Assembly (NCBI GenBank): GCA_016720835.1
Contig: JADKJW010000001.1
Span: 390,776 to 454,775, forward strand
Direction: 5' to 3'
Length of the DNA stretch: 64,000 nucleotides
From: Ignavibacteria bacterium
GTDB taxonomy: Bacteria; Bacteroidota; Ignavibacteria; SZUA-365
Shown here: piece after piece, positions 15,424 through 60,202 of the stretch
Layout of the letters: every line of letters starts with the position of its first letter
How positions within the stretch are numbered: the first letter of the stretch is position 1
Translations under genes and position numbers: made by a program
Notes under the pieces: generated by a model
The model's database searches: none
The model's input: only the letters and a program-made list of their open reading frames with translations
Told to the model about the DNA's origin: nothing

Positions 15424-16200
15424 TTGCGGGATGAATATGCAACGATTCCACCCGATACCGCGTCTCGCCGATGCATGCGACCGATGAGGGCTGACGCGCT
15501 CTCACCCCGCGCGCGCATCCTGACTGCAGCGGTCCTGCTTGCCGCGTCGATCGTCTTCTGGGACTCGATCGTGCTTGCGCCCGTGAAGCTCTTCGTCGTG
15601 CTCATGCACGAACTCTCGCACGGTCTCGCCGCGGTGCTGACGGGCGGCAGCATCGTGCGCATCGAGATCGATCCGCGCATCGGCGGCGCCTGCCTGACGC
15701 AGGGCGGCTGGTCCTTCGTCGTCGTCTCGAGCGGCTACATTGGCAGTCTGCTGCTCGGCGGCGCCATCCTCCTCGCCGCGCAGCGGGCGCGCTCCGCGGC
15801 GCTGCTCGCGGGCGCCATCGGCGTGGCGGTGCTCGTCGTGACGCTGCTCTTCGTGCGCAACGGTTTCGGACTGGCGTTCGGCGTCGCTTTCGGCGCGGCA
15901 ATGATCGCGATGGCGCGTTTCCTGCCGCCCGCGCTCGTCGAGACCGCCCTGCTCTACCTTGGCGGCATGTCGGCGCTGTACGCGGTGGTGGACGTGAAGG
16001 AGGATCTCCTCACGCTGCAGCCGCGCCTCACCGACGCCGCCATCATGGCGTCCATGACCGGCGTTCCAGCCATCGTGTGGGGGCTGCTGTGGAGCGCGTT
16101 GTCCCTCCTCCTGTTTCTCGTCATCATGCGCCAGGTCTGGCGGCGCAATCAGGCCGCTGAGAGCGGCCGCTCCACCACACACCCCGGGCAATCCGCATGA
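15424..16200 (+). CDS. M50B-like integral-membrane metallopeptidase (HELSH motif)
   Basis: Multi-pass membrane protein with LFVVLMHELSHGLAAVLTGG zinc motif. The start could be an internal Met. Confidence 0.65.
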   Translation: MRDEYATIPPDTASRRCMRPMRADALSPRARILTAAVLLAASIVFWDSIVLAPVKLFVVLMHELSHGLAAVLTGGSIVRIEIDPRIGGACLTQGGWSFVVVSSGYIGSLLLGGAILLAAQRARSAALLAGAIGVAVLVVTLLFVRNGFGLAFGVAFGAAMIAMARFLPPALVETALLYLGGMSALYAVVDVKEDLLTLQPRLTDAAIMASMTGVPAIVWGLLWSALSLLLFLVIMRQVWRRNQAAESGRSTTHPGQSA

Positions 16201-33358: not shown

Positions 33359-36070
33359 ATGCCCAGTTTCGCGACACGCACCTCCCTCCTCCTCATCGTC
33401 CTCTCGCTCCTCGCGGCCGACGCCATAGCGCAGGATGCGCAACGAGACCATTTCCGCAAGCAGGAAATGCAACGCGCCGGCAGTCTCGCCAAGCGCCAGG
33501 CGCGCACGCTCGCGGGCGCCGCAGATTACGACGTGATCTCCTACCGTCTCACGCTCGCGATGCCCATGCTCGAGAACGGCACCTTCGGCGGGAACGTGGT
33601 CATGCGGATGAAGAGCACGGTGGACGGCCTCTCGAACGTGGTCGTGAACGCCGGCGCGAATCTGCGCGTCGACAGCGTGACGTCGGAAGGCGCGAAGCTG
33701 CTCTTCACCCATGTCGGCGACACGCTGAAGGCCACGCTCGCGTCGCCCGCTTCGAAGGGCGCCGCGCGGGAAATCACCATGTATTACAGCGCCCCGTACA
33801 CCGGCAGCGCCATCGCCGCCAAGCCCGTGACGAACGTCCCGCTCAACGTCCCCACACTCATGATCGCCTCGCAGTCGGAGCCTTACGACGCGCGCAACTG
33901 GTGGCCCTGCAAGGACGATCCGGCGGACAAGGCCGACACGGTCGATCTCATCTGCACCACGGACTCCTCGCTCTTCTGCGTCAGCAACGGCAGCCTCGTC
34001 TCCGACGTGAAACATGCCGACGGCACGCGCACCATTCACTGGCGGTCGACGTATCCGATCGCGACCTACCTCGTCTCCGTCGCGCTCGCGCAGTTCTCGT
34101 CGACGGAAACCACCTTCACGCACGGTGGAAAAACCATGCCGGTAAACAACTGGTGGTACTCGATGCAGGCGGCGCAGATGCAGCCCAGCGCCACGGCAAT
34201 GATGGAGGGATTGCAGTTTTTCTCGGATCGCTTCATCACGTACCCGTTCATCAACGAGAAATACAGCATGGCCGAATACGGGGCCTTCGGCGGCGCGATG
34301 GAACACCAGACCTGCACGTCGATGGGCTTCTACGGCGTCGGCGTCACCATCCACGAACTGGCCCACCAGTGGTTCGGCGACAAGGTCACCTGCGCAAACT
34401 TCGAGCACATCTGGCTGAACGAGGGCTGGGCCACCTACTGCGAGGCCCTGTTCGAGGAATCGAAAGGCGGCCTCGAAGCGCTGAAAAACAACATGGCCGG
34501 CAACGCGTACTTCGGCCCCGGCACGATTTACGTGTACGACGCGCTCGACAAGAACATGGGACAGATCTTCAGCGGCGACCTCAGTTACAACAAGGCGTCG
34601 TGGGTGGTGCACATGCTGCGTCACGTGGTGGGCGACAGGAATTTCTTCCCCGCGGTGAACACGTATCTCGGCTCGGACGCGCGCGAGAATTGCCGCAGCG
34701 TCACGACCCAGGAATTCCAGGGCTTCCTCGAGCGCGAGAGCGGCATGAACCTGACCCAGTTCTTCAAACAGTGGATATACGGCGACTACTTCCCGACGTA
34801 TCGTCTCGCCTGGACATCTTCGCCTTCGGGCGGCGTCACGAATGTGACCGTGACCATCGATCAGCTGAATACTCCGACGCGTCAGGTCTTTCACATGCCG
34901 ATCGACCTCACCTTCTCGCTGCCCGGCGGCGACACCACCGTCGTCGTGCATGACTCGCTCGCGACGCAGGTCTTCACCTTCGCATTCTCGGAGAAGCCGA
35001 CCACCGTGCGCCTCGACAAGGACAACTGGATCCTGAAGCGGGTGGTGCAGCCCATCAGCAACCCGACCTTCGACAAGGGCATCCTCCTCGTCAACGGCGT
35101 CGACTGGGACACGTACGCGACGGATCCGCTGAAGCAGTGCTACGAGGACTCCGTGTTCACCGGCGACAAACCCTACACGTTCTGGGATCTCTTCCCGAAT
35201 CCCGGAAGCGGCTATCCGCGCAACATCACCGCTCCCGCGGGCATCGGCGCCGTGCCGCCCGAGGAACTCGGCAAGTACTGCACCGTCGTGTGGGTGGGCA
35301 ACGCGTATGGCGGCGACGAGGCCGTCTGGCAGAACTCGAACATCTGGGAATACCTGAAGGCGGGCGGCAACGTCATCCTGCTGACGCGCCAGGGCAGATT
35401 GTTCATCACCGCCGAACTCGTGAACTTCACGGGTCTCACCTGGTCCACCGGACAGCAGCCGCCGCTCGAGGAATGCAAGGCCGAGCAGACCTGGCTGATG
35501 GACCTGGCCTTCACCGGAGAACAGAGCCTCGTGCACGCCTTCCAGCCCGCGCTCTCAAGATCGGAGAATGAGATCCTCTTCTCCGACAGCAAGGCCTTTG
35601 CGTCGAAGCAGGCGCTCGGCCTCTGGGCGAAACCGATGAGCGTCGGCGGCAAGCAGACGGGGCAGATGGTCTATATCGGCGTGCGGCCGTACCGCGTCTC
35701 CATGTCGCTGCTCAAGCCGGACATGCAGACGATACTCGACCGCATGCCCTGTGTGCCGCTCGTCAACGGCACGGATGCTGCCGGTCTGCCCCAGGGTCTC
35801 GCGCTCGCGCAGAACTATCCGAATCCGGTCACTCCCGCGAACAGCACGACAGCGATCGACTTCACGGTTCCCGGATCGTCACAGATGCAGGTCACGCTCG
35901 CCGTGTTCGACGCCCTCGGCCGCCGCGTCGCGCTGCTCGTCGATGCCGCGCTCGTGCCAGGTTCGCACCACGCATCTCTCGATACGCGCCCGCTCAGTGC
36001 CGGCGTCTACACCATCAGGCTCAGCGCGGGCGGAAGCGATGCGGTGCGAACGATGACGGTGGTGAAATAA
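33359..36070 (+). CDS. M1-family aminopeptidase (aminopeptidase N-like) with C-terminal T9SS sorting domain
   Basis: Signal peptide. GAMEHQT...HELAHQWFGDKVTCANFEHIWLNEGWATY (GxMEN-like and HExxH-x18-E motifs). CTD AQNYPNPVTPANSTTAIDFTVPGSSQMQVTLAVFDALGRRVALLVD...GVYTIRLSAG. Confidence 0.88.
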   Translation: MPSFATRTSLLLIVLSLLAADAIAQDAQRDHFRKQEMQRAGSLAKRQARTLAGAADYDVISYRLTLAMPMLENGTFGGNVVMRMKSTVDGLSNVVVNAGANLRVDSVTSEGAKLLFTHVGDTLKATLASPASKGAAREITMYYSAPYTGSAIAAKPVTNVPLNVPTLMIASQSEPYDARNWWPCKDDPADKADTVDLICTTDSSLFCVSNGSLVSDVKHADGTRTIHWRSTYPIATYLVSVALAQFSSTETTFTHGGKTMPVNNWWYSMQAAQMQPSATAMMEGLQFFSDRFITYPFINEKYSMAEYGAFGGAMEHQTCTSMGFYGVGVTIHELAHQWFGDKVTCANFEHIWLNEGWATYCEALFEESKGGLEALKNNMAGNAYFGPGTIYVYDALDKNMGQIFSGDLSYNKASWVVHMLRHVVGDRNFFPAVNTYLGSDARENCRSVTTQEFQGFLERESGMNLTQFFKQWIYGDYFPTYRLAWTSSPSGGVTNVTVTIDQLNTPTRQVFHMPIDLTFSLPGGDTTVVVHDSLATQVFTFAFSEKPTTVRLDKDNWILKRVVQPISNPTFDKGILLVNGVDWDTYATDPLKQCYEDSVFTGDKPYTFWDLFPNPGSGYPRNITAPAGIGAVPPEELGKYCTVVWVGNAYGGDEAVWQNSNIWEYLKAGGNVILLTRQGRLFITAELVNFTGLTWSTGQQPPLEECKAEQTWLMDLAFTGEQSLVHAFQPALSRSENEILFSDSKAFASKQALGLWAKPMSVGGKQTGQMVYIGVRPYRVSMSLLKPDMQTILDRMPCVPLVNGTDAAGLPQGLALAQNYPNPVTPANSTTAIDFTVPGSSQMQVTLAVFDALGRRVALLVDAALVPGSHHASLDTRPLSAGVYTIRLSAGGSDAVRTMTVVK

Positions 36071-46216: not shown

Positions 46217-48505
46217 TTAAGCGACTTCGACGTAGCGTTCCGCGATTTCGACGCCCCGCACCTTGCGCACGCGCTCGATGAGGCGCTGCAGGTGTTCGAG
46301 ATCGCGGACCGACACGAGGACGGAGCCGTGGAACATGGATGTCCCCTGCTCCGCCTCGATGTTGACGCTGCGGATGTTGGTGTTGTTGTAGCTGGAAATG
46401 GCGAGGGTAATCTCGTTCAGGACGCCGGGACGATCGGAACCCTCCATGCGTATGCCGCCGAGATACTCGCCGTTGGTACTCTGCGGCCAGCTGATGTCGA
46501 TGATGCGGTCGAGCATCCCGTGCCCCTCGGCGTCGACGGCACTCATCAGCCGCTGGATGTTGCGGCAGCTCTTGCGATGGATTTTGACGCCTCGCCCCTG
46601 CGTGACAAACCCGATGACGTCGTCGCCGGGCAGCGGGCTGCAGCAGCGGGCGAAGTCGTACTGCATGGCATTCGGCAGTCCCTGGATGAGAATTCCGCGT
46701 TCGTTGCGCGCGGCCGCCGCGAATTCCTCGAAGAGTTCGGACGGGTCGCGCTGCGGGAGGATGATGTCCTCCGGCTTTGGCTCCGTGTCCGCGACGACCT
46801 TGAGAATGTCGTCCACGGTGAGTTCGTCGTTGCCGAGCGCGGCGAACAGCTTCGAGGGGCTCGAGAAGCTCAAGTGCGTCGCCGCGCGCTGGATCTGCTC
46901 GTCGCGGATCTGCAGCTTCTGGCGTTTGATCTTGCGGTCCCACTTCTCCCGGCCCTTGTGCGTCGCGAGTTTGGTCTGCTCGCCGACGTACTTGCGGATC
47001 GCATTTTTCGCCTTGTGCGTGATGACGAACTGCTCCCAGTCCGGGCTCAGGTACTGGTTCCGCGAGGTGATGACTTCCACCTGATCGCCGCTGCGGAGCG
47101 TGCGGTTCAGCGGCACGATCCGCCCGTTGACTTTTGCGCCGATCGTGTGCAGTCCGACTTCGGAATGGATCATGAACGCGAAATCGACAGGAGTCGCGCG
47201 GTTCGGCAGCACGATCAGATCGCCCTTGGGCGTGAAGACGACGATCTCCTCCTGGTACAGCGTGCTCTTGAAATTGTCGATCAGCAGCTTCGCGTCCTCG
47301 TCCGTCGCGCTGGTGAGCGGCACTTCGATGATCTCGCGCACCCAGCGTATCCAGTTGTCGAAGGCGCTCTGCTTGTTCTTGACGCTCTCCTTGTACGCCC
47401 AGTGCGCGGCGATGCCTTTTTCCGAAATCTCGTGCATCAGCCGGGTGCGTATCTGCACTTCCACCATGCGGCCGTCCGGTCCCAGCACGGTCGTGTGGAT
47501 GGACTTGTACCCGTTCTGCTTCGGGAGGGCGATGAAATTCTTGTAGCGCTCGGGAATCGGCGTGTAGAGTTCGCACACGATCGCGTACGCGATGTAGCAC
47601 GATTTTTCCTCATCCGAATCGAGAATGATGCGCACGGCGAAGAGGTCGTAGATCTCGTCGATCGTCTTGTTCTGCTTGCGCATCTTGTTGTAGATGCTCC
47701 ACAGGTGTTTCGGGCGTCCGCTCACTTCGGAGATGAGGCCGTTCCGTTCCAGTTCCGCCTTGATGGGTTTGCTGAACCGTGCGATATACTCCTCCCGATC
47801 GCGCCGTTTGAGCGACACCTGTTCGCGGAGTTTCCGGTAGTCTTCCTCGAAGTAGTATTTGAACGCGAGGTCCTCGAGCTCCCACTTGAGCTTCCCGAGA
47901 CCGAAGCGGTGCGCGAGCGGCGCGTAGATGTCGAGCGTCTCCTTGGCGATCCGCGCCTGTTTCTCGTCCGGCACGTACTCGAGCGTACGCATGTTATGCA
48001 GCCGGTCGGCGAACTTGACGAGGATGACGCGCACGTCGTTGAGCATGGACACGAGAAGCTTGCGGTAATTTTCCGCCTTCGTCACTTCTCTGCTCCCCAG
48101 GATGTTGGAAATCTTGGTGGCACCGTCGACGATGTCCGCGACTTCGCTTCCGAAGTTTGCCAGCATGTCGTCGTACGTGCAATCGTCGCAATCCTCCAGC
48201 ACGTCGTGCAGAAGCGCCGCCGCGACGGTGACATCGTCCACCGGGATTTCCTGCGCCACGATCATCGCGACCGCATAGGGATGCGAGAAGTACTTCTCCC
48301 CCGATTTTCGGAACTGCCCCTCATGCGATTGTTCGGAAGTCGTGAACGCTCTCGTAATAAGATCCGTGTTCACCGATTTCAGGTTGTTCCGGCAAACGGT
48401 CAGCAGCGCCGCAAGCTGGTCCCTGCTCGCAGCGGCACCCACAGCCTGCTGCGCCATGGGCGAAGCCGCAAGCCGTTTTCGCTTCCCATCTCCAAACAAC
48501 GCCAT
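46217..48505 (-). CDS. bifunctional (p)ppGpp synthetase/hydrolase RelA/SpoT
   Basis: HD domain (YFSHPYAVAMIV...HDVLED), synthetase domain (SGRPKHLWSIYNKM...DLFAVRIIL), TGS (VFTPKGD) and a C-terminal ACT-like region. Confidence 0.92.
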   Translation of the reverse strand: MALFGDGKRKRLAASPMAQQAVGAAASRDQLAALLTVCRNNLKSVNTDLITRAFTTSEQSHEGQFRKSGEKYFSHPYAVAMIVAQEIPVDDVTVAAALLHDVLEDCDDCTYDDMLANFGSEVADIVDGATKISNILGSREVTKAENYRKLLVSMLNDVRVILVKFADRLHNMRTLEYVPDEKQARIAKETLDIYAPLAHRFGLGKLKWELEDLAFKYYFEEDYRKLREQVSLKRRDREEYIARFSKPIKAELERNGLISEVSGRPKHLWSIYNKMRKQNKTIDEIYDLFAVRIILDSDEEKSCYIAYAIVCELYTPIPERYKNFIALPKQNGYKSIHTTVLGPDGRMVEVQIRTRLMHEISEKGIAAHWAYKESVKNKQSAFDNWIRWVREIIEVPLTSATDEDAKLLIDNFKSTLYQEEIVVFTPKGDLIVLPNRATPVDFAFMIHSEVGLHTIGAKVNGRIVPLNRTLRSGDQVEVITSRNQYLSPDWEQFVITHKAKNAIRKYVGEQTKLATHKGREKWDRKIKRQKLQIRDEQIQRAATHLSFSSPSKLFAALGNDELTVDDILKVVADTEPKPEDIILPQRDPSELFEEFAAAARNERGILIQGLPNAMQYDFARCCSPLPGDDVIGFVTQGRGVKIHRKSCRNIQRLMSAVDAEGHGMLDRIIDISWPQSTNGEYLGGIRMEGSDRPGVLNEITLAISSYNNTNIRSVNIEAEQGTSMFHGSVLVSVRDLEHLQRLIERVRKVRGVEIAERYVEVA

Positions 48506-49889: not shown

Positions 49890-50708
49890 TCAGCTCTCCT
49901 CGTCCTCATCGTCGCGCATGCCCGCGCGAAGTTCCGAGATGATGCCTTTCATCATCGCGAAATCCTCCGGATCATAGTTCACCGCGGTGAGCACCAGACC
50001 ATGCGGAGGCGCGAGCATCGGCGTGAAGGCGCGGTCCTTCGCCTCGAGGATGTCTCCGAATTGCCCGACCGTCATCCTGCCCCTGCCGACGAGCACCAGC
50101 CCGCCGACGAGCGCGCGAACCATGCCCTTCAGGAAGCGGTTTGCGCGCAGCGTGAAGACGCAGGATTCCTCGCGCACCATCCATGCCGTCTCGTACATGT
50201 GGCAGGTGCAGTGATCGACGGTGGGAGAGAACTTCGAGAAACTCGTGAAGTCGCGCGTACCGGGCAGCAGCGCCGCGGCCTCCTGAATGCGCCGGTGCTC
50301 GAGACGGGCGTAGACGATCCACCGGTCCCGACGGTGCAGCGAAGTCCGTTGCTGCGTCAGCGAGTACGCGTACTCACGCGAGGATGCGGAGAAGCGGGCA
50401 TGGAAATCCGCGGACGTCACGGCGAGGTCCCGCACGGAAACATCCGCCGGCAACACCGCGTTCAAGGCGCGTCCGATGGTGTGGGGATCCAGGCGCGTCG
50501 CGGCATCGAAGTGCGCGACCTGCCCGCGCGCATGCACGCCCGTGTCGGTGCGTCCCGCGCCGTGCACGCGAGTCGCGGAGCCGAACAGGCGTTCCGCGGC
50601 CTCCTCCAGCGTCCCTTGCACGGACCGCCCGGACGGCTGCAATTGCCATCCCACAAAATCGGTGCCGTCGTATTCGACGGTCATGCGGAAACGGCGCGGA
50701 TCATGCAT
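49890..50708 (-). CDS. truA: tRNA pseudouridine(38-40) synthase
   Basis: RMTVEYDGTDFVGWQLQPSGRSVQGTLEEA...HGAGRTDTGVHARGQVAHFD. The listed ORF has an upstream extension. Confidence 0.88.
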   Translation of the reverse strand: MHDPRRFRMTVEYDGTDFVGWQLQPSGRSVQGTLEEAAERLFGSATRVHGAGRTDTGVHARGQVAHFDAATRLDPHTIGRALNAVLPADVSVRDLAVTSADFHARFSASSREYAYSLTQQRTSLHRRDRWIVYARLEHRRIQEAAALLPGTRDFTSFSKFSPTVDHCTCHMYETAWMVREESCVFTLRANRFLKGMVRALVGGLVLVGRGRMTVGQFGDILEAKDRAFTPMLAPPHGLVLTAVNYDPEDFAMMKGIISELRAGMRDDEDEES

Positions 50709-51033
50709 GCGCGCAATCCCACGGGCGGTGATCCAGGACAGGACGGTTGCGGGAGAACATCGAAAAAGGTAGCGGAAAAATCGTGCCGCCGCAAGGGTTG
50801 AAACGTGTACGAATATTACATGAAAACGAATCGCGCTCTTGACAATTGCCCCATGACATCGTAGTTTCCATCCGATCACACCCAAATTCCGCACATCCTG
50901 TCTGTGACGATACAACCGGCACGCATCGTGCCTTTCAACACATTTCTTCAGGATTCATTTTTTTCAGGGAAAAAAATGCGAGATAAACGGACTCATACTA
51001 TCCGGGTTTCCTCCTTTCACTCACCCTCATGAG

Positions 51034-54000
51034 GTGGCTATGAACAAGCGATTCTCATTCGCGCTGCTCGCGCTGCTGTTCTGTTCGACCGCGGCGCTCG
51101 CGCAGGACGCACTCCCGACACCCCGCTTCGTGCCTCCCGAAATTCGCGGGAACGACGCGCAGGCCTTCTACAAGGACATGGCGATCATCGAAACGAACTG
51201 TTCCGACTGGACGGAAGTTCGCGCGTTGTGGAAACAGCTCACGGAAAAGGGCGCGCTCATCTCGGTGATCGCCTCGCCGAAGCGCTGGATCGGCTGGGTC
51301 CCGACCGAATCGAAGGATGCCGTCGGCAGCGCCCGCTTGAACAGCGCGACGGGCTCCCTCGGCGTGACCTCGATCTCGTATACTGCCGCTGAATTTCGGA
51401 CCAAACACTCCGGCATGCAGCTGCAATCGACCAGCGAAGAGGAATCGGCCCTCGTGGAGTATCTGGAACACGCGAAGCACACGCGGACGCCGGAGGAACT
51501 GCAGCGCATCGAGGAGCGCACGCGCGAACTCGATCTCATTGCGCCGACCGTTCAGCAACCGCCGTGCGTCTTCACCAATCCCGAGCCGATCCCCCTGCCC
51601 GAAACGGCCTCATCGCCGAAGGGACCCTCCACGCAGGGCGGCGCCAATCCGTCGATCACTCGCAGATCGACACCGCAGGGACTGATCGTCCACACGAGCG
51701 TGTTCCCGGAGAGCCAGAGCGGGACAGGATCCTGGAACTGGGACATGACCGTGTACAACCGCTACCGCAATCTCCATCTCGACGCGATGCACTACTGGAC
51801 GGCGCAGGCTTCCAAATACGGCAAGAGCGCGACCCTGATCTGGCGCCTCTACGGCCCCACCCACTGGTGTTCGCAGGTATCCGGCGAACCGACGGTCATC
51901 GGGGAACACACGTTTATTCCGGTCATCCTCAACAACATCTATCCACCCGACGTCTGGGACATCCTCTTTGGACGCATCCCGAACTGGAACGGAAGCAACG
52001 GCCTGGACCGCGGCGACGCGTGGGGCTGGTACTACAACAATAAAATCCGGGACTATTTCGGGGCGGACCAGGCAATTTGCGCCTTCATCGCGTGGAAAGG
52101 CACCCCGAACGAGGGGATCTGGCCGCACGCCCGCTCCGTGACATGGGGGAACGGCGACCACGAAGGCATCTACTACGCGATGGATGTGCGGTACTGGCAG
52201 GCCGGGCTCGACCCCTATGCCATGCCCAGCCGCAATGTCTGCGCGCATGAAATCGGCCACCTCTGGGGCTCGCCCGACGAGTACCGCACGGACAATTGCA
52301 CGTGGTCATACCGTGGAGCCGAAAACATCAACTGCCAAACAACCCGGCCGACGGCCCCGGGTCGCCCGGGCTACAAGATCGTCGGTTTCGACGCGATGAT
52401 GGTCGGGAATTATCTCTCGGGTTCGAGTTCCGTCATGCCCGTGCACATGGGCCTGCTCACTGCGGGACAGCGGACGCCGTTGCGCTGCTTCACATCGCAG
52501 CCGGCCAACATTCCCATCACGCTCCACATTTGCGACAACAGTTCGCATGCGCTGTCCACACGCACGCTGACGGGTCCGACCTGTGTGCCGATGGAATGGG
52601 ACTTCTGCTATAAAACCGAAGTCCCGCTCACACGCAGCATTTCCGGGTCGACGTGGTACTTCGACCATTTCGAAGTGAAGCGCGAGAACGGCGCGACCTC
52701 GAACATCGACGACTACGCGAACAACATGCCGTCCTACGCGTTCACCTCGACGCAGGCGAATCCCGTCACCGACGTCAAGGCGGTGTACACGAATACCCCG
52801 CCCGATTTCAATACTGCCAACACCTCGATCACCGCATGGCTCGCACCGGCGGGCAATTCCGCGACGCCAAATCCCGCGGTCGCACTGCGTTGGCGAAACA
52901 AGTACGACATGCAGAAGGTCGTGACGAAAATCGAATGGGAGCGCACTGCAGGGACATGGGTGGAAGTGCAGCCCGTGCTCGGACCGTTCCCGGTCTCGAT
53001 CGGGCAGTACACCGGAGTGATCATCACCGCGCTCCCGCTTGCGGGAGGAGGTACCACGGCCGTGGCGGCAAACACGCAGTACCGCTTCCGCATTGTGGGC
53101 ATCTTCAACACGATCCGCGGCACCAACAGCGTGGTCGCCGAAATCCGCACGCGCCCGTCCTCACCGACGGATACGGTCTATTGCAGGGACGCGCAGGAGC
53201 CGAATTCCGCGGCTTCGCCGAAGGTCCTCACCTCGTCCGGCCCCGGCATGGCGCCGTATCTCTTCAAGGCGGCCTGTCCGATCTCGATGATCACCGGCGA
53301 GTTCACCTGGTTCAGACCCAAATACGACTACTATCGCGTGACGGCCATCAACCTCAGCAACGTGACGGGCGGCGAGCGTCTCACCCTGGTGCTGCACGTG
53401 AGCGACGGCTCGAAATTCAAACCGGTGTTCCGCGCGAAAATGGCGGGCAGTTCCACGTACATCAATTCGTCGAGCGGCGGCCCGGGGTATTACATCCTGT
53501 CGCTGTCGGTGGACGGGACGTACGACATCAGCGTCGAACCGGAGATCAGCTCCTTCATCAGTTATCGCCTCATCGAACCGTCGACCGGCGACTTCGGGTT
53601 CGGCGAATATACCATCAGCGTCGATCGGACCTACAACAAGCCGCCGCTCGTCGCATTCTGTCCGACATGCGTCAAGGTCAGCATCCTCCAGCCTATCAGC
53701 GGCCTGTTGATCTCGAAAGCGCCGGGCGATCTGTTCGACAAGGGCGTCGATAAAAACACGCCGGGACTCTTCGATGTGCTGTTCCACCCCCCGGCGGGCT
53801 TCATCTTCGACGGCTGGGATCTCCCCAAGCCCGAGATCCTGGAAGATCCGAAAGCGAACCCGACCAAATTCAAGTACGGCCCGAATACGCCGCCGGGAGA
53901 ATACGAACTCGGCGCGAAATTGAGACCGGTGGCGCAGGGTCAGAACGAACTCGTGGTCATCTTCCCGCAGGGACCCGACGGTCCCTTCGAGGCCCGCACG

Positions 54001-56148
54001 CTGCATTCGACTGGCGCGGTCGTGAACGTGACGGCGCCCGCGAATCCGAACTACCTCTTCCTCGGGTGGAGTCACGACACCGCCGCGACGACGAATCCTC
54101 TTCCCGTCACGATGTGGCGCAGCAAGAAACTCATCGCCACGTGGAGAGAGAAGCCGTGCCAGCCGGAACCGATGGTGAAGTGGGTGCATCGCGCAACGCT
54201 GACCAACGCGAAGAACGGCAGCGTCACCATCGACTACGGCATGGATCCGAGCGCGGGTGACGGGCTCGAAGCGGGGCAGGTGGACCTTCCTCCCATTCCG
54301 CCTCCGGGACCGTTCGATATCCGTTTCATCAACATCACCGGTTCGCAGGGAAGCATCAGCGATCTGCGCGCGATACAGCAGTCATTCATCTATCTGCTGC
54401 GCGTCCAGACCGGAACCACCGGCACCGCGCCCGTGCAGATGACCTGGGGCGCGCCGCCGGTTTCACCGAACGCGACGTTCTTCCTGTACGTGCAGGGCGA
54501 ACCCGCGCCGTTCAACATGCGCACGACATCGAGTTACACCTTTGCCGCGGAAGGCACGTACAATTGCCGCATCGAAGTGAAGATGCCGGAGTGCCCGCCG
54601 AAATCGAAGGAACCCGAAGTGGTCATCGTTCCGACGCGCAACGATCCGACGCGCTTCCCCTGCGTGGAACTGGCGATGCAGTTCCGCGACCGCAAGACCG
54701 ACATGCTCTATCCGCTGTACAACCCGTATCAATTCCATCTCTTCGAGAAGAACGACGATGGCGGGTGGGGCCCGATCCGCATCACCGAAATCGTGCAGCT
54801 CCCGACCATGACGCTCTTCCGCATTTGTACGGACGAAGGGAGCCCGAAACCGAATCGCGAGATCGTCATCGTCAACGACGATCAGGATCCGGACACGAAG
54901 AAGGACACGATCACGGTCAATATCCCCGTGCCGAATCCCACCGGGACAGGCACTCCTGTCCGCTTCGTGCAGCAGCATAGCGGAGACTGGGAGCTTGTCT
55001 CGATTCCGCTCGAGGTCAAGTACCCTGAATCGAACGTGATCTTCTCCGATCCCGCGACGCTTCTCTTCCGGTTCGATACGAACACCGGATATTACTTCTC
55101 CGTGCCGAAGATGACGTTCGGTGAAGGCTACTGGTTGAAGACGAACGATAAAGCCACGGTCTACTACGGGATGGAGAAGCTCATCTTCAACTGGGACACG
55201 CTCATCGGTATCGGGCAGCCCTACGGCTACGGCTGGAATCTCATCGGCGCGGTGTCGAAACCGCTCGCCGTGGCCGCGATCCAGCAGACACCCGCGGGCG
55301 GTCTCAAGGCCATCTTCGGCTACAATCCCGCGTCGGGCTACGTCGTTCCGACCATCGTCAATCCCGGACAGGGCTTCTGGGTCCGTGTCGACCCGAACAC
55401 GAAACTCAAGATGCAGGCGCCCGGCGTCGCCGGACCGCCGACCGTCACAGCATACGCGAAGACCGCGGCCAGTCTGAACGTCATTGCCAACCTGGTGTTC
55501 ACCACTGCCAGGAATGAGCGCCAGGAACTGCCGGTGACGACCAGCCGCATCTCCGCGGCCGATGTCGACAACCTGCTCCTTCCGCCGCTTCCCTACGGGT
55601 CGGGACTCGATGTCCGCACCGAGGCGGGAACGCGGTACATTCCGTTCGGCATGACCGGCATCGATATTCGCAGCCAGATCGATGTGAAGGTGACGTTCGA
55701 ACCTGTCGTCGCGACGCAGGACCGCTATCAGTTGCTCGACGAGAATGACGCCGTTCTGGCGGAATTCAGCGGCGCGCAGCCGGTGACGGTCACCGTCCCC
55801 GCATCGAACGCGCACCGGATCTTTCTGAAGACCATGACGTCCGGAATATCCGGCAACTTCGCCCTCGACCAGAACTGGCCGAATCCGTTCTCGCCGGCGC
55901 AGCACGAAGCCACCACCATCGCCGTCACGTTCGGGACGCCGTCGCATGCGCGCCTCGCCGTGTACGACGTGATGGGAAGGCAGGTGCGGCTCCTGCTCGA
56001 TCAGGACCTCCCGGCGGGCATGAAACATCTGCGCTGGGATGGTCGCGACGGGCGCGGGGACCTGCTTCCTGCGGGCACCTACCTGCTGCGCCTGCAGGCT
56101 GCCGAGGGCACGATCACGAAATCGATGACCATCACTCACGCCAAGTGA
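51034..56148 (+). CDS. 1704-aa secreted multidomain protein. N-terminal zinc-metallopeptidase-like domain (HEIGHLWGSPDEY), multiple Ig/FN3-like domains, shared GWNLIG tandem module, C-terminal T9SS sorting domain
   Basis: Signal peptide MAMNKRFSFALLALLFCSTAALAQ. CAHEIGHLWGSPDEY (HExxHxxGxxDEY, reminiscent of M64-type peptidases). Module GDWELVSIPL...GYWLKT...GWNLIGAVS...GFWVRV. CTD NWPNPFSPAQHEATTIAVTFGTPSHARLAVYDVMGRQVRLLLD...GTYLLRLQA. Confidence 0.85.
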   Translation: MAMNKRFSFALLALLFCSTAALAQDALPTPRFVPPEIRGNDAQAFYKDMAIIETNCSDWTEVRALWKQLTEKGALISVIASPKRWIGWVPTESKDAVGSARLNSATGSLGVTSISYTAAEFRTKHSGMQLQSTSEEESALVEYLEHAKHTRTPEELQRIEERTRELDLIAPTVQQPPCVFTNPEPIPLPETASSPKGPSTQGGANPSITRRSTPQGLIVHTSVFPESQSGTGSWNWDMTVYNRYRNLHLDAMHYWTAQASKYGKSATLIWRLYGPTHWCSQVSGEPTVIGEHTFIPVILNNIYPPDVWDILFGRIPNWNGSNGLDRGDAWGWYYNNKIRDYFGADQAICAFIAWKGTPNEGIWPHARSVTWGNGDHEGIYYAMDVRYWQAGLDPYAMPSRNVCAHEIGHLWGSPDEYRTDNCTWSYRGAENINCQTTRPTAPGRPGYKIVGFDAMMVGNYLSGSSSVMPVHMGLLTAGQRTPLRCFTSQPANIPITLHICDNSSHALSTRTLTGPTCVPMEWDFCYKTEVPLTRSISGSTWYFDHFEVKRENGATSNIDDYANNMPSYAFTSTQANPVTDVKAVYTNTPPDFNTANTSITAWLAPAGNSATPNPAVALRWRNKYDMQKVVTKIEWERTAGTWVEVQPVLGPFPVSIGQYTGVIITALPLAGGGTTAVAANTQYRFRIVGIFNTIRGTNSVVAEIRTRPSSPTDTVYCRDAQEPNSAASPKVLTSSGPGMAPYLFKAACPISMITGEFTWFRPKYDYYRVTAINLSNVTGGERLTLVLHVSDGSKFKPVFRAKMAGSSTYINSSSGGPGYYILSLSVDGTYDISVEPEISSFISYRLIEPSTGDFGFGEYTISVDRTYNKPPLVAFCPTCVKVSILQPISGLLISKAPGDLFDKGVDKNTPGLFDVLFHPPAGFIFDGWDLPKPEILEDPKANPTKFKYGPNTPPGEYELGAKLRPVAQGQNELVVIFPQGPDGPFEARTLHSTGAVVNVTAPANPNYLFLGWSHDTAATTNPLPVTMWRSKKLIATWREKPCQPEPMVKWVHRATLTNAKNGSVTIDYGMDPSAGDGLEAGQVDLPPIPPPGPFDIRFINITGSQGSISDLRAIQQSFIYLLRVQTGTTGTAPVQMTWGAPPVSPNATFFLYVQGEPAPFNMRTTSSYTFAAEGTYNCRIEVKMPECPPKSKEPEVVIVPTRNDPTRFPCVELAMQFRDRKTDMLYPLYNPYQFHLFEKNDDGGWGPIRITEIVQLPTMTLFRICTDEGSPKPNREIVIVNDDQDPDTKKDTITVNIPVPNPTGTGTPVRFVQQHSGDWELVSIPLEVKYPESNVIFSDPATLLFRFDTNTGYYFSVPKMTFGEGYWLKTNDKATVYYGMEKLIFNWDTLIGIGQPYGYGWNLIGAVSKPLAVAAIQQTPAGGLKAIFGYNPASGYVVPTIVNPGQGFWVRVDPNTKLKMQAPGVAGPPTVTAYAKTAASLNVIANLVFTTARNERQELPVTTSRISAADVDNLLLPPLPYGSGLDVRTEAGTRYIPFGMTGIDIRSQIDVKVTFEPVVATQDRYQLLDENDAVLAEFSGAQPVTVTVPASNAHRIFLKTMTSGISGNFALDQNWPNPFSPAQHEATTIAVTFGTPSHARLAVYDVMGRQVRLLLDQDLPAGMKHLRWDGRDGRGDLLPAGTYLLRLQAAEGTITKSMTITHAK

Positions 56149-56162
56149 CAGGAGGAAACACC

Positions 56163-57272
56163 ATGAAACGCACACATTTCTTTCTCGTCGCTTTCGCCGT
56201 TTCCTTCTTCTTCGCGATTCCGCACGGTATCGCCCAGGAATTGCGCGGCGTGATGCTCGGCCTCACGGTCTCAAACTTCAACAACCGCAGCCAGAATCTT
56301 TCGATCGGCATTATCGAAGGCGCGTCAAAGGGCATCGATCAGCAGCTCGGAGAACTGGAGCTTCCCCCGTTTCCTCCGCAGGAGATCTTTGACGCGCGCA
56401 TCGCGAGCACGCCCGGAATGTCCTCGCTCGGCACGGGTTCGCTCTCGGACTATCGCCCGGCGAGCCCGTCGACCACCTCATACACCGAGACCTACACCGT
56501 CGCGTACCAGGGAGGCCTGGGCGCGACGAAGGTCAAGCTCGAATGGCAGTTTCCGCTCCCCGGACGCGTGACGAAACTCACCGTCGACGGCACGGATGTG
56601 ACGGCCCTGGCGTCCATCGATATTCCGTTTCCGGGGGGACAGGCGACGGTCGTCGTGACGTACAATTACGCCCCGCTCTCGTTCACAGCGCTTCCGACGT
56701 CGCTCTCCTTCGATGCGAACAACCGCGATGCGCTTCCCTCGAAGCCGCTCGAGATCATCCCCCAGGGCGACAGTCAGGCACAGTGGATGATCAGCTCCGA
56801 TGCCGACTGGCTCAGCCTCGATGCGGGATCGGGCGAAGGCAGACAGACGATCACCGTGGAGGTCAGAACCGGGATCATCCCGACAGGAGTGTACACGGGC
56901 ATCATCACCGTGCGCTCGCTCTTCGATCCGGCCTTCCTCGACATTCCGGTCACGCTGAACTACACGCTCGGCGCGAACGGGGCGCCGCTTCCGGAGGGCA
57001 TGGCGTTGACGCAGAATTTCCCGAATCCCGCTTCGGGGAGCACCGCGATCAGCGTCTCGCTCGGCGTGCAGGCCGCCGTCTCGTCCCCTCCAATCCTGAA
57101 GGTGACCGACATGGCCGGCCGCGTCGTCCTCGACCTCTCCTCCCGGCTGCGCCGTGATCCGGGGCCGCAGACGCTGGCGGTGGACATCGCGTTCCTGCCC
57201 GCGGGTTCATATACGTACACGCTCAGCGGCGCGGGGTATGAAGTCTCGCGCAGCATGATCGTGGTGAAATAA
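56163..57272 (+). CDS. secreted BACON-domain protein with C-terminal T9SS sorting domain
   Basis: Signal peptide MKRTHFFLVAFAVSFFFAIPHGIAQ. BACON-like PTSLSFDANNRDALPSKPLEIIPQGDSQAQWMISSDADWLSLDAGSG. CTD TQNFPNPASGSTAISVSL...KVTDMAGRVVLDL...GSYTYTLSGAG. The start codon overlaps the upstream gene's stop region. Confidence 0.75.
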   Translation: MKRTHFFLVAFAVSFFFAIPHGIAQELRGVMLGLTVSNFNNRSQNLSIGIIEGASKGIDQQLGELELPPFPPQEIFDARIASTPGMSSLGTGSLSDYRPASPSTTSYTETYTVAYQGGLGATKVKLEWQFPLPGRVTKLTVDGTDVTALASIDIPFPGGQATVVVTYNYAPLSFTALPTSLSFDANNRDALPSKPLEIIPQGDSQAQWMISSDADWLSLDAGSGEGRQTITVEVRTGIIPTGVYTGIITVRSLFDPAFLDIPVTLNYTLGANGAPLPEGMALTQNFPNPASGSTAISVSLGVQAAVSSPPILKVTDMAGRVVLDLSSRLRRDPGPQTLAVDIAFLPAGSYTYTLSGAGYEVSRSMIVVK

Positions 57273-57352: not shown

Positions 57353-60202
57353 ATGAAACGCATTGTCGGCGTTCTCCTGCTCTTCATCGGATGTTTCGCG
57401 CCGCGTGACGCGAGCGCGCAATATTCAGCGGTCAACGAGGCGCTGTCGCTCACCGGTGCGGGGTATGTCTCCATCCCGTGGGCAAACGCATTCAACGGGC
57501 AGCTGAACCAGATCGGGATGTTCAGCATCGATGCCTGGGTCTATCCGAGTTCGCTCTCCGGATACATGACCGTTGTCGGCAACGACTACGGTGTCGGGTA
57601 CTGGCTCGGCGTCACTCCGACCGGCAAGATCCGTTTCTACCCGCGAGGCGGCCTGTACTACGACAGCCCGGGGTCGATCCCCAGCGGACAATGGTCGCAC
57701 ATTGCCGACTCGTTCAACGCGCGGAAGCAGACTCTCTCCTTCTACATCAACGGGGCGCTCAACGGTTCCGTCGGTGTTCCGCAGGGCGGTGTCGGAAGCG
57801 TCACCGGCGGGGATCTCCGTATCGGCGCGGATCGATCGGGCGGATCACCGGCGTACTACTGGAGCGGCATGATCGATGAAGTGCGACTCTGGACTGAGGA
57901 GATCAATTTCTCGTCGGCAGTCGGGCTGCTGTATCGCGTACCGCATGCGGTCTACAACGGACGCTACGGCAAGTACCTCGTTGCCGGCTGGCGCCTGAAC
58001 GGAAGTGAGACGGGAATCGACAATCAATTCAACGGGACTCTCACCGGCACGAGCAGCTACGCGAGCGCCCCCATGCCGCCGCATTACGCCCGCATCTGCG
58101 CGTCCTTCTCGAACCTGCAACCGCTCGCCGCCGCGGGAACCGACGATTACTTCGCGATCCCCAGTTCCTCGGGAAACGCGCTCGTCCAGAACTACACTCT
58201 CGAGTGCTGGGTGAAGCCCACGTCGACCGGCGGAAGTCCGACCTATCAGACCTTCATCTCGAAGGGATCGCAGTATGCGGGTTCGTGGTCGTACTGGGTC
58301 GGGCTCAACAAGGCGAACAGCAAGGTGCGCTTCGTCCCCAACGGCGATTTCACCGACGGTCTCGAATCGTCCACCACCATGCCGCTGAACCAATGGACGC
58401 ATGTCACCGCCCGGTATCTGGTTTCGGGCAACACGCGCACCGCGACGCTCTTCTTCAATGATGTCGTCGTCGGAACGAAATCCTATTCCAGAGACGCGAC
58501 CCCGAATCAGAACGCGGTGCTGATCGGCCGCGCGGACTATGCAGGCACGCCCGTGAACGGCTACGGATTGTCGGGCTTCCTCGACGAAGTGCGCATCTGG
58601 AACACGGCGCGCAGCAACACGGAAATCATCAACGCCTACCGCATGGAATTGACCGGTCCGGTGACGAATCTCACCTCCTCGTACCACTTCGACGGCGATG
58701 TCCTCGACGCGTCCGGAAACGGAAACAACGGCGCGCATACGCTGGCCGCATCCGCGGACGTGACCTTCAACGACGCAAGCGATCTCCCCGCCATCCCGAC
58801 CGTCCAAGTGCTGCTGCCGAACGGCGGCGAAACCTGGTTCACCGGCAGCACACGCTCGGTGCAGTGGGCTTCCAGCGGCCTGCAAAACGTGCGCATCGAG
58901 TTGTCGCGCGACGGCGGGCAGACCTATGGCGAAGTGCTCACCCCCTCCACGCCCGCGGCGACAGGCGCATTCAATTGGCTGGTGAGCGGTCCCGTGACCG
59001 CCACCGCACGCGTCCGTGTCACCACGACGACGCCGACCTCCCTCTCGGATGAAAGCGACAAGAACTTCAGTATCGAGGACCCGCCGCCGACGCTCAGCGC
59101 GACGCCGTCGTCGCTGACTTTCGCCGCGGCGCAAGGCGGAGTGCTCCCGCCATCGCAGCGCATCCGCCTCAAGAATACGGGAGGCGGGACCCTGAGCTGG
59201 AGCGCCAGTCCCGGCGCAACGGCCTGGCTCAGCCTCAACCCGACGGCGGGAACCGCGAACACGGACTCCTTCGATGTGTCCATTCTTGACTCGAACCTTC
59301 CGGAAAATTCGTATAGCGCCGTCATGACCATCACCGGAAATTTCTCGAACTCGCCGGTCACGATACCCGTCGTGTACCGCGTGACGAAGAAACTCATCTT
59401 CTCGATCTCCGGACGCGTCACGATCGGATCGACGCCGCTCGCGAATATCGTGATCCCGATATTCGGCGACGTGAACACCTCCGCAACAACGGACATCAAC
59501 GGGTACTATTCCGCCACGGGACTGCCGCAAGGCGACTATGCGCTCGCGCCTTCCAATCCCTTCTACGATTTCACTCCCGCCTCGCGCAATTACGCGCCGC
59601 TGAACAGCAATGTCACGGACGCGGACTTCAACGGACGGTCGAAGCGAGGCAGGGCGATGCTGCGGTATCGCGAAGGGTGGAACCTCATGTCGCTTCCGCT
59701 CAATCCCGACATCACCGATCTGGGGTTGCTCCTTCCGGCCGCGAAGCTGCCGGCGTATTTGTTCGATCCCGCAAAGGGGTACGTCGAAACGACGACGGTC
59801 GGTTCCAACAAGATGGTGTTCTGGGTCAACTGCTCGCGGACCGACAGCACGGAGATCAGCGGTGAACTGCTCCCCGCCGTGCAGCATTCCGTCTCCTCCT
59901 CCTACGGTGGATGGAATCTGATCGGGGCGCCGAGCGGTCCCGCCTCCGTCGCGGCGATGGAACAGTTTCCCTCCGGTCTTGCGGTCGCGATCTATGAATA
60001 CGATCCGCTGTTCGGATATCTTCCACCCATCGACGGCCAATTCCGTCCGGGCCGCGGGTACTTCCTGAAGGCGGCCGGAGACGGAAGCGTCCGTATCACG
60101 GCGGAGAGCGCCTTCGCACCGATCGTCTTCAGGCCGTCGCTGCGTTTCCCCGGTGCTGCAGTGCTGTGGGATCCGCCGCCGCCCCCGCCCCCGTCGCGAT
60201 GA
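57353..60202 (+). CDS. large secreted LamG x2 / BACON / carboxypeptidase-regulatory-like protein with unassigned tandem C-terminal module (paralog of 7957..11112)
   Basis: Signal peptide MKRIVGVLLLFIGCFAPRDASAQ. Collinear with and about half identical to 7957..11112 across the LamG blocks (IDAWVYPSSLSGYMTVVGNDY..., LECWVKPT...LDEVRIWN), PNGGETW...VQWAS, BACON (LTFAAAQGGVLPPSQRIRLKNTGGGTLSWSA) and the C-terminal GWNLMSLP...GWNLIGAPS...GYFLKA module. Confidence 0.85.
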   Translation: MKRIVGVLLLFIGCFAPRDASAQYSAVNEALSLTGAGYVSIPWANAFNGQLNQIGMFSIDAWVYPSSLSGYMTVVGNDYGVGYWLGVTPTGKIRFYPRGGLYYDSPGSIPSGQWSHIADSFNARKQTLSFYINGALNGSVGVPQGGVGSVTGGDLRIGADRSGGSPAYYWSGMIDEVRLWTEEINFSSAVGLLYRVPHAVYNGRYGKYLVAGWRLNGSETGIDNQFNGTLTGTSSYASAPMPPHYARICASFSNLQPLAAAGTDDYFAIPSSSGNALVQNYTLECWVKPTSTGGSPTYQTFISKGSQYAGSWSYWVGLNKANSKVRFVPNGDFTDGLESSTTMPLNQWTHVTARYLVSGNTRTATLFFNDVVVGTKSYSRDATPNQNAVLIGRADYAGTPVNGYGLSGFLDEVRIWNTARSNTEIINAYRMELTGPVTNLTSSYHFDGDVLDASGNGNNGAHTLAASADVTFNDASDLPAIPTVQVLLPNGGETWFTGSTRSVQWASSGLQNVRIELSRDGGQTYGEVLTPSTPAATGAFNWLVSGPVTATARVRVTTTTPTSLSDESDKNFSIEDPPPTLSATPSSLTFAAAQGGVLPPSQRIRLKNTGGGTLSWSASPGATAWLSLNPTAGTANTDSFDVSILDSNLPENSYSAVMTITGNFSNSPVTIPVVYRVTKKLIFSISGRVTIGSTPLANIVIPIFGDVNTSATTDINGYYSATGLPQGDYALAPSNPFYDFTPASRNYAPLNSNVTDADFNGRSKRGRAMLRYREGWNLMSLPLNPDITDLGLLLPAAKLPAYLFDPAKGYVETTTVGSNKMVFWVNCSRTDSTEISGELLPAVQHSVSSSYGGWNLIGAPSGPASVAAMEQFPSGLAVAIYEYDPLFGYLPPIDGQFRPGRGYFLKAAGDGSVRITAESAFAPIVFRPSLRFPGAAVLWDPPPPPPPSR

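What the first reader, a model, noticed from the sequence alone, without database searches (positions are those of the whole stretch)
52225..52275. HEIGHLWGSPDEY motif defines the catalytic core of the giant protein
The sequence CAHEIGHLWGSPDEY gives HExxH, a downstream Gly and a DEY triplet. This arrangement matches what I recall for M64 (IgA-peptidase-type) metallopeptidases, where HExxHxxGxxDEY is diagnostic. It is not the HExxH...E of thermolysin or M1 types (the M1 enzyme at 33359 has the latter). An M64-like domain fused to about 1200 aa of Ig/FN3-like repeats and a T9SS CTD would be an unusual architecture
Basis: partly seen in the sequence, partly recalled or inferred. Interest (0 to 1): 0.55.

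Follow-up and report, generated by a model that had tools for sequence, protein, structure and literature searches.

The report
Unclassified metzincin protease, not M64
The HEIGHLWGSPDEY motif is real and marks the zinc site of a giant secreted protease, but the enzyme belongs to an uncurated branch of the well-known metzincin group rather than to the M64 IgA-protease family, and its overall build is ordinary for proteins exported by the type IX secretion system.

Summary
The motif exists. CAHEIGHLWGSPDEY is aa 401-415 of a 1,702-aa ORF (51040-56148, +) and lies at nt 52240-52284, about 10-15 nt right of the stated range.

It is not chance. HExxHxxGxxD occurs once in the six-frame translation (0.014 expected). 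H403, E404 and H407 are invariant, and D413, E414, Y415 and M454 are at least 90% conserved across 48 relatives.

The mechanistic reading (HExxH plus Asp as third zinc ligand, then Glu-Tyr) is supported. The M64 assignment is not:
- True M64 enzymes carry one extra residue (HExxHxxxGxxDEY). All 162 motif-bearing relatives have the shorter spacing.
- Pfam Peptidase_M64 does not hit the window protein, and hits only 1 of 20 catalytic domains (E 0.07).
- The M64 structural-zinc cysteines are absent.

The nearest relatives by sequence are snapalysin (M7, profile E 1.6e-7) and the M6 domain model (E 1e-6), all below curated cut-offs.

The domain belongs to a large, unannotated metzincin family (at least 375 proteins). 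A metzincin with long C-terminal domains and a T9SS CTD has precedent in cytophagalysin.

The parts
51040..56148 (+). Whole CDS of the giant protein (1,702 aa plus stop); ATG at 51040 preferred over the GTG at 51034
   Evidence: ORF list and translation. Orthologues of 1,680-1,753 aa start at the equivalent Met.
51040..51102 (+). Probable Sec signal peptide, aa 1-21 (MNKRFSFALLALLFCSTAALA|Q)
   Evidence: Read directly from the sequence: basic n-region, hydrophobic core, A-x-A followed by Gln. The same pattern is in the orthologues and AF2 puts a helix at 2-20. No dedicated predictor was run.
51142..51540 (+). N-terminal alpha/beta domain plus helical segment (aa 35-167); putative prodomain
51550..51657 (+). 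Low-confidence linker (aa 171-206) containing invariant C176
   Evidence: pLDDT <50. C176 is invariant in 9 orthologues. Across relatives it co-occurs with C54 (23/5 against 5/10, Fisher p 0.002, not corrected for phylogeny).
51658..52473 (+). Metzincin-type catalytic domain (aa ~207-478)
52246..52284 (+). Zinc-binding motif HEIGHLWGSPDEY (H403, E404, H407, G410, D413, E414, Y415)
   Evidence: It lies on the predicted active-site helix 400-408.
52297..52335 (+). C420 and C432 (DEYxxxxC...N.NC), a probable disulfide pair below the zinc site
   Evidence: C420 is at least 90% conserved across 48 relatives. C432 is invariant in the 9 orthologues and the N.NC motif recurs in the superfamily consensus. 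The pairing itself is inferred.
52393..52404 (+). Putative Met-turn A452-M453-M454-V455 (M454 conserved)
   Evidence: M454 is at least 90% conserved in 48 sequences and invariant in the catalytic-only alignment. It aligns with C-I-M608 of IgAse. The Cys found at the first turn position in distant relatives is Ala here.
52474..55875 (+). About 1,130 aa of conserved but unassigned domains (aa 479-1612); one InlB-B-repeat-like domain at aa 990-1038 (nt 54007-54153)
   Evidence: Conserved at 40-69% identity among orthologues. Pfam Flg_new_2 25.7 bits against 23.6. No repeats by self-BLAST. No PDB sequence match.
55876..56145 (+). T9SS type A C-terminal sorting domain (aa 1613-1702)
   Evidence: TIGR04183 27.6 bits (cut-off 23) and Pfam FlgD_ig 30.8 (cut-off 27). 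The same domain is in the orthologues.
56145..57272 (+). Downstream 375-aa protein with a T9SS CTD-like tail, syntenic partner
   Evidence: Por_Secre_tail 25 bits, just under the cut-off of 27. It lies immediately downstream of the giant gene in 6 of 6 informative loci.
57353..60202 (+). Downstream 949-aa Laminin_G_3/BACON_2 protein, syntenic partner
   Evidence: Pfam Laminin_G_3 E 2.4e-43. Conserved third gene of the cluster.

Best explanation
The gene at 51040-56148 encodes a secreted, multidomain zinc endopeptidase of the metzincin clan. Its catalytic domain (aa ~207-478) belongs to a large family that no curated model covers. H403 and H407 on the active-site helix and D413 after the G410 turn bind the catalytic zinc. 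E404 is the general base that activates the zinc-bound water. Y415 is placed to act as the 'tyrosine switch' that stabilises the transition state. M454 forms the Met-turn under the metal site. The protein is exported across the inner membrane through a Sec signal peptide. It probably folds with, and is kept latent by, an N-terminal alpha/beta domain joined by a flexible linker. It is then carried across the outer membrane by the type IX secretion system through its C-terminal sorting domain, and probably ends up on the cell surface or in the medium. Shown here: motif, conservation, fold class, CTD, synteny, and failure of every curated family threshold. Inferred: metal ligation geometry, prodomain role, disulfides. 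Unknown: substrate.
Against: There is no biochemical evidence. No curated peptidase model reaches its threshold, so homology rests on sub-threshold but statistically significant local matches plus a predicted fold. Foldseek against the PDB gave nothing at E<=0.001. The loop at aa 436-449 next to the Met-turn has low confidence.
Confidence: 0.8

Rival explanations
1. It is an M64 (igalysin, IgA-peptidase-type) family metallopeptidase.
Against: The M64 motif has an extra residue (HExxHxxxGxxD), and the window and 162 of 162 motif-bearing relatives lack it. There is no Pfam PF09471 hit for the window at E<=10 and only 1 of 20 catalytic domains hits, at E 0.07. The hhalign match covers only 25 columns and needs a gap. 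The Cys ligands of the M64 structural zinc (Met-turn Cys plus two helix Cys) are absent, with A452 and no Cys between 433 and 482. M64 hits are weaker than M7, M6 and M12-like hits and not the best by fold.
Confidence: 0.04
2. It is simply a very divergent member of M7 (snapalysin) or M6 (thuringilysin/InhA), the two established metzincin families with HExxHxxGxxD, rather than a separate family.
Confidence: 0.15
3. The domain is a glycan-dependent protease (O-glycopeptidase-like) that works with the neighbouring LamG/BACON protein on glycoprotein or polysaccharide-rich substrates.
Against: The Z margin over ADAMs (8.9) is negligible and sequence identity is 10%. No glycan-binding module was recognised in the giant protein. 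The relation to the neighbouring genes is synteny only.
Confidence: 0.08
4. The protein is a non-catalytic adhesin or surface protein with a degenerate protease-like domain.
For: About 1,130 aa of unassigned, probably beta-rich domains and a surface-anchoring CTD. NCBIfam has a 'T9SS-dependent M6-like inactivated metalloprotease' model that 6 of 38 full-length relatives touch.
Against: Every catalytic residue (H403, E404, H407, D413, Y415, M454) is invariant in the orthologues and conserved across the superfamily. The NF052323 model did not hit any of the 20 catalytic-only sequences, so those matches were to other parts such as the CTD.
Confidence: 0.04

Closest known systems
Snapalysin (MEROPS M7; Streptomyces caespitosus neutral protease, PDB 1c7k/4hx3)
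   Different: Snapalysin is a ~132-residue single-domain enzyme with DHY rather than DEY. Here the catalytic domain is ~270 aa, preceded by a ~130-aa N-domain and followed by ~1,200 aa. Pfam and NCBIfam M7 models are far below threshold.
Thuringilysin / immune inhibitor A (MEROPS M6; InhA2, PDB 4yu5/4yu6)
   Different: Score is 26-29 bits against the 110.8-bit cut-off. Pfam Peptidase_M6 hits only 3 of 20 catalytic domains, at E>=0.02. Flanking domains and host lineage differ.
Igalysin / IgA peptidase (MEROPS M64; T. ramosa IgAse 9ekk/9qdh/9qa6, Bacteroides 4df9/3p1v)
   Same: Asp ligand followed by the family-specific Glu and a Tyr (DEY), with a Met-turn. Distant relatives of the window protein even share the C-x-M turn and a following Cys.
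Cytophagalysin CPL1 (pappalysin family M43) and other T9SS-exported metzincins
   Different: M43 uses His as the third ligand and a short Cys-switch prosegment. Here the ligand is Asp, and the pro-region is a folded alpha/beta domain.

Membership tests
MEROPS M64 / Pfam PF09471 (igalysin) | Match to the curated Peptidase_M64 model | tested here: not met
   No hit for the window protein at E<=10. Only 1 of 20 catalytic domains of the superfamily hits, at E 0.072. None of the listed relatives carries precomputed PF09471.
MEROPS M64 / Pfam PF09471 (igalysin) | Zinc motif HExxHxxxGxxD, with an extra residue before the Gly | tested here: not met
   The window has HEIGHLWGSPD, with Asp at +10. PF09471 sequences, 4df9 and IgAse have Asp at +11 (PMC12237041). 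None of 162 motif-bearing relatives has the +11 spacing. hhalign inserts a gap.
MEROPS M64 / Pfam PF09471 (igalysin) | Asp ligand followed by Glu (family-specific residue) and Tyr (switch) | tested here: met
   D413-E414-Y415, at least 90% conserved. They align to D550-E551-Y552 of IgAse.
MEROPS M64 / Pfam PF09471 (igalysin) | Structural zinc site formed by that Glu, the Met-turn Cys and two Cys of the C-terminal helix | tested here: not met
   The first Met-turn residue is A452, and there is no Cys between C432 and C483. The IgAse fragment reads ECIMRDTNYQFCEVC.
MEROPS M64 / Pfam PF09471 (igalysin) | Preferential fold similarity to M64 structures | tested here: not met
MEROPS M7 (snapalysin) | Match to the curated models PF02031 / NF033628 | tested here: not met
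   Snapalysin scores 12-14.6 bits against a cut-off of 300. PF02031 hits 8 of 20, best E 1e-4, with no hit for the window sequence itself.
MEROPS M7 (snapalysin) | HExxHxxGxxD-x-Y with Asp ligand, ungapped | tested here: met
   Ungapped alignment to HETGHVLGLPDHY of 1c7k.
MEROPS M6 (thuringilysin/InhA) | Match to the curated models TIGR03296 / PF05547 | tested here: not met
   TIGR03296 scores 25.8-28.8 bits against a cut-off of 110.8. PF05547 hits 3 of 20 at E>=0.023.
Metzincin clan MA(M) | Extended motif HExxHxx(G/N)xx(H/D) | tested here: met
   (G 99, N 30 at the turn position). Consensus as stated in PMC12237041.
Metzincin clan MA(M) | Conserved Met-turn downstream of the third ligand | tested here: inconclusive
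   M454 is at least 90% conserved and aligns with the IgAse Met-turn Met. The 1,4-turn geometry could not be inspected because no coordinates were returned.
Metzincin clan MA(M) | Catalytic-domain fold (twisted beta-sheet, backing helix, active-site helix) | tested here: met
T9SS cargo protein | C-terminal sorting domain (type A CTD) | tested here: met
   TIGR04183 27.6 bits against 23 at aa 1613-1694, and FlgD_ig 30.8 against 27. Conserved in the orthologues.
T9SS cargo protein | N-terminal Sec signal peptide | tested here: met
   Read from the sequence and conserved in the orthologues. No dedicated predictor is available.
T9SS cargo protein | T9SS machinery in the same genome; CTD removal by PorU | not testable with these tools
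   Only a 64-kb window is available. Other proteins with CTD-like tails just under the Pfam cut-off lie in the window (33359-36070, 56145-57272).

The most novel reading that the evidence does not exclude
The catalytic domain represents a large metzincin family absent from Pfam and NCBIfam. It has at least 375 proteins, in Bacteroidota, Chlorobiota and Ignavibacteria and also Actinomycetota, Myxococcota, Chloroflexota and Pseudomonadota. The family combines the M6/M7 motif spacing with the DEY and (in most members) C-x-M Met-turn features of M64 and archaemetzincins, so it could be an evolutionary bridge among the Asp-ligand metzincins. It also uses a folded, subtilisin-propeptide-like N-terminal domain tethered by a disulfide as its latency or folding module, which would be a new zymogen design for a metzincin.
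Probability: 0.35. Interest if true: 0.45.

Novelty: new member of a known kind. Interest (0 to 1): 0.28.

Why it matters
It corrects an annotation-level call. The protein should be described as a T9SS-exported metzincin with an Asp third ligand, not as an M64 IgA-type peptidase, and no IgA-cleaving or host-associated role should be inferred.

Protease specialists may find some value in a widespread HExxHxxGxxDEY family that curated libraries miss (its members are labelled 'hypothetical' or 'RICIN domain-containing'). The alignments built here could seed a family model.

Mechanistically nothing departs from standard metzincin chemistry, and the architecture is typical of large T9SS cargo proteases, so it opens no long-standing question.

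Tried and rejected
1. The first AF2 run, with only 4 sequences, gave pLDDT 35 and was discarded. A 48-sequence alignment fixed this.
3. The afdb50 fold library was not available.
4. Single-sequence and 4-sequence profile searches of the PDB gave only E~0.1-0.9 to snapalysin. The catalytic-domain-only profile was needed for significance.
5. An exact look-up of the window protein, with either start codon, found nothing in the assembly index.
6. Seeding an M64 search with the 4df9 fragment returned only four short fragments. That was enough to read the motif but too little for a full-domain profile comparison.
7. Cysteine-switch idea for invariant C176: rejected as the leading reading. The linker Cys co-occurs with C54 of the N-domain (23/5 against 5/10, p 0.002), which points to a disulfide.
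8. Ig/FN3 repeats: self-BLAST, Pfam on six orthologues and a PDB profile search found no repeats and only one InlB-B-repeat-like domain.
9. A literature search for a prior description of this family found none.

Full report
**1. Observation**

The + strand at 52240-52284 reads tgc gcg cat gaa atc ggc cac ctc tgg ggc tcg ccc gac gag tac, which translates to CAHEIGHLWGSPDEY. This is aa 401-415 of a 1,702-aa ORF (ATG 51040, stop 56146-56148).
The peptide itself is correct.
- HExxHxxGxxD occurs once in all six frames of the window, against 0.014 expected from composition.

**2. Conservation**

A word-indexed search with aa 1-533 found only three relatives at 45-46% identity.
- A scan of one genome per species found eight loci. 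All are MAGs labelled Bacteroidota, Chlorobiota or Ignavibacteria, apart from one labelled Chromatiales. Five carry complete orthologues of 1,685-1,753 aa.
- The motif in these loci is HE[IVM]GHL[WF]G[SA]PDEY.
- The whole protein is conserved at roughly 40-69% identity per 50-aa block.
- An exhaustive HMMER profile search of 1.84 billion representatives found 51 proteins at E<=0.001, including distant relatives at ~20% identity.
- In the 48-sequence alignment H403, E404 and H407 are invariant. D413, E414, Y415, C420, N429, N431 and M454 are at least 90% conserved.
- A profile of the catalytic domain alone (A5, 20 sequences) retrieved at least 375 proteins at E<=0.001, the best at 1e-58. They come from Streptomyces, Corallococcus, Ruegeria, Ilumatobacter, Anaerolineales and other lineages.
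- Almost all of these are named 'hypothetical' or 'RICIN domain-containing'. Their precomputed Pfam labels are absent, or occasionally Reprolysin_5 or Peptidase_M7, and never M64 or M6.

**3. Which family?**

Curated models:
- For the window protein, Pfam passes only FlgD_ig and Flg_new_2. Reprolysin_5 is sub-threshold and Peptidase_M64 does not appear even at E<=10.
- NCBIfam gives the T9SS CTD above cut-off. It also gives M6dom TIGR03296 at 25.8 bits (cut-off 110.8; E 9e-6) and snapalysin at E 0.13.
- On the 20 catalytic-only sequences at E<=5, Pfam hits were Reprolysin_5 15, Reprolysin_2 9, Peptidase_M7 8, Reprolysin_4 8, Peptidase_M6 3 and Peptidase_M64 1 (E 0.072). NCBIfam hits were M6dom 11 (best 2.4e-7) and snapalysin 10. 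None approaches a curated cut-off where one is reported.

Solved structures by sequence (the A5 profile):
- Snapalysin 1c7k and 4hx3 match at E 1.6e-7, ungapped over HETGHVLGLPDHY.
- The M64 IgA proteases 9ekk and 9qdh come next at E 0.034, then 4df9 at E 0.11, ADAM10 at E 0.18 and 3p1v at E 0.57.

Motif spacing:
- The IgAse structure paper states that M64 has a unique motif, H539-E-x-x-H543-x-x-x-G547-x-x-D550, with an additional residue before the Gly, followed by E551 (structural-zinc ligand) and Y552 (Tyr switch). It also states that Asp as third ligand with normal spacing occurs in snapalysins and thuringilysins (PMC12237041).
- Four PF09471-labelled sequences were retrieved. Three, together with the 4df9 fragment, read HEFGHSFGGLADEY; the fourth, P0171, has lost the HE (RRFGHSFGGLADEY). 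The IgAse fragment reads HEFGHGLLGLGDEY. In all the Asp is at +11.
- The window and 162 of 169 retrieved relatives have Asp at +10, and 160 read exactly DEY. None has +11.
- The seven exceptions are five short fragments matched only over the N-terminal domain, one frameshift-degraded sequence, and one with DEN.
- hhalign of A5 against the M64 fragments aligns only 25 columns and inserts a gap: HEIGHLW-GSPDEY against HEFGHSFGGLADEY.

The window's motif is the M6/M7-type spacing combined with the EY that M64 also has.

**4. Fold**
- With the 48-sequence alignment, AF2 gave pLDDT 83.3 and pTM 0.84 for aa 1-533.
- It predicts an N-terminal alpha/beta domain plus helices (aa 35-167), a disordered linker (171-206), and a catalytic domain with strands at 214-221, 264-271, 344-351, 363-369 and 374-382. 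Long helices lie at 236-259 and 324-340, and the active-site helix is 400-408. A beta domain begins at ~481.
- Foldseek against the PDB was weak. The best hits were TACE at E 0.014 and the InhA2 zymogen at E 0.021, with no M64 chain in the top 50.

The fold is therefore metzincin, with no preference for M64.

**5. M64-specific structural zinc**
- In IgAse the site is formed by E551, C606 (first residue of the C-I-M Met-turn), C616 and C619.
- Distant relatives of the window protein mostly have C-x-M and a Cys about 10 residues later.
- The window clade has A452-M453-M454 and Ser in place of that later Cys. There is no Cys between C432 and C483.
- The paired loss suggests those two Cys form a disulfide or a site that this clade dispenses with.

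**6. Mechanism (inferred from established metzincin chemistry)**
- H403, H407 and D413 bind zinc.
- E404 polarises the catalytic water.
- Y415 acts as the Tyr switch.
- M454 forms the Met-turn.
- C420 and C432 probably form a disulfide.

The N-terminal domain sits between the signal peptide and the catalytic domain, is followed by a disordered linker, and recurs in most relatives.
- The output gives no query ranges. I infer these hits belong to the N-domain from its b-a-b-b-a-b order.
- A prodomain or intramolecular-chaperone role is therefore plausible but unproven.

Invariant C176 in the linker looked like a cysteine switch. Across relatives, however, a linker Cys co-occurs with C54 (23/5 against 5/10; Fisher p 0.002, not corrected for phylogeny), which favours a C54-C176 disulfide.

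**7. Export and context**
- The N-terminus (MNKRFSFALLALLFCSTAALA|Q) looks like a Sec signal peptide. The Gln at +1 is conserved in the orthologues. From my own knowledge, this fits the pattern reported for Bacteroidota signal-peptidase-I substrates.
- The C-terminus is a type A T9SS sorting domain.
- The gene is followed by a 375-aa protein with a CTD-like tail just under the Pfam cut-off, and by a 949-aa Laminin_G_3/BACON_2 protein. This three-gene order is kept in all six loci with enough downstream sequence, whereas the upstream relA/truA genes are not conserved.
- The ~1,130 aa between the catalytic domain and the CTD are conserved but unassigned. Only one InlB-B-repeat-like domain is recognised, with no internal repeats and no PDB sequence match.
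- The 'Ig/FN3 repeats' therefore remain untested.
- The general architecture has precedent. Cytophagalysin is a 137-kDa protein with a signal peptide, a prosegment, a metzincin domain, eight Ig-like domains and a T9SS-CTD-like last domain (PMC11674741).

**8. Verdict**
- The motif is real and catalytic, and the Asp-ligand reading is right.
- The M64 family assignment fails four of five defining features.
- The 'unusual architecture' is ordinary for T9SS cargo proteases.
- What remains mildly interesting is that the domain belongs to a large metzincin family without a curated model, closest to M7 and M6.

Noticed in passing
It also carries a T9SS CTD-like tail (Por_Secre_tail 25.2 bits, just under the cut-off of 27).
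   Followed up: partly
window 15424-16200 (+): A third HExxH protein, a Peptidase_M50B-like membrane metalloprotease (E 1.3e-43; HELSHG).
   Followed up: partly
window 56145-57272 and 57353-60202 (+); L001-L004, L006, L008, L009: The giant protease gene is always followed by the same two genes, a 375-aa protein with a T9SS CTD-like tail and a 949-aa Laminin_G_3/BACON_2 protein. This suggests a conserved secreted-protein operon. The start of the second gene overlaps the protease stop codon in the window.
   Followed up: partly
L005 678-5723 and 6001-7362: This MAG contig carries two tandem paralogues of the giant protease gene (38% and 45% identity to the window N-terminal region).
   Followed up: no
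L002 5875-10924 (P0001): The Chlorobiota MAG orthologue is split. The 869-aa ORF (P0001) ends where similarity continues in another frame, so it is a frameshift, either an assembly error or a pseudogene, and not a genuinely shorter protein.
   Followed up: partly
L006 (CAYLZD010000004.1): This contig is labelled 'uncultured Chromatiales' but encodes the full three-gene T9SS-cargo cluster at 53-62% identity to the window. The bin's taxonomic label is probably wrong.
   Followed up: no
alignment A4, columns for window aa 410 and 450-465: In distant relatives the canonical metzincin Gly after the second His is often H, W, Q or N. Most of them carry a C-x-M Met-turn plus a Cys ~10 residues later, reminiscent of M64 and archaemetzincin structural-zinc sites. 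The window clade has lost both Cys together.
   Followed up: partly
window 46217-48505 (-) and 49890-50915 (-): Housekeeping neighbours upstream: a RelA/SpoT-family (p)ppGpp synthetase/hydrolase and a TruA-like pseudouridine synthase. Neither is syntenic with the protease cluster in other genomes.
   Followed up: no
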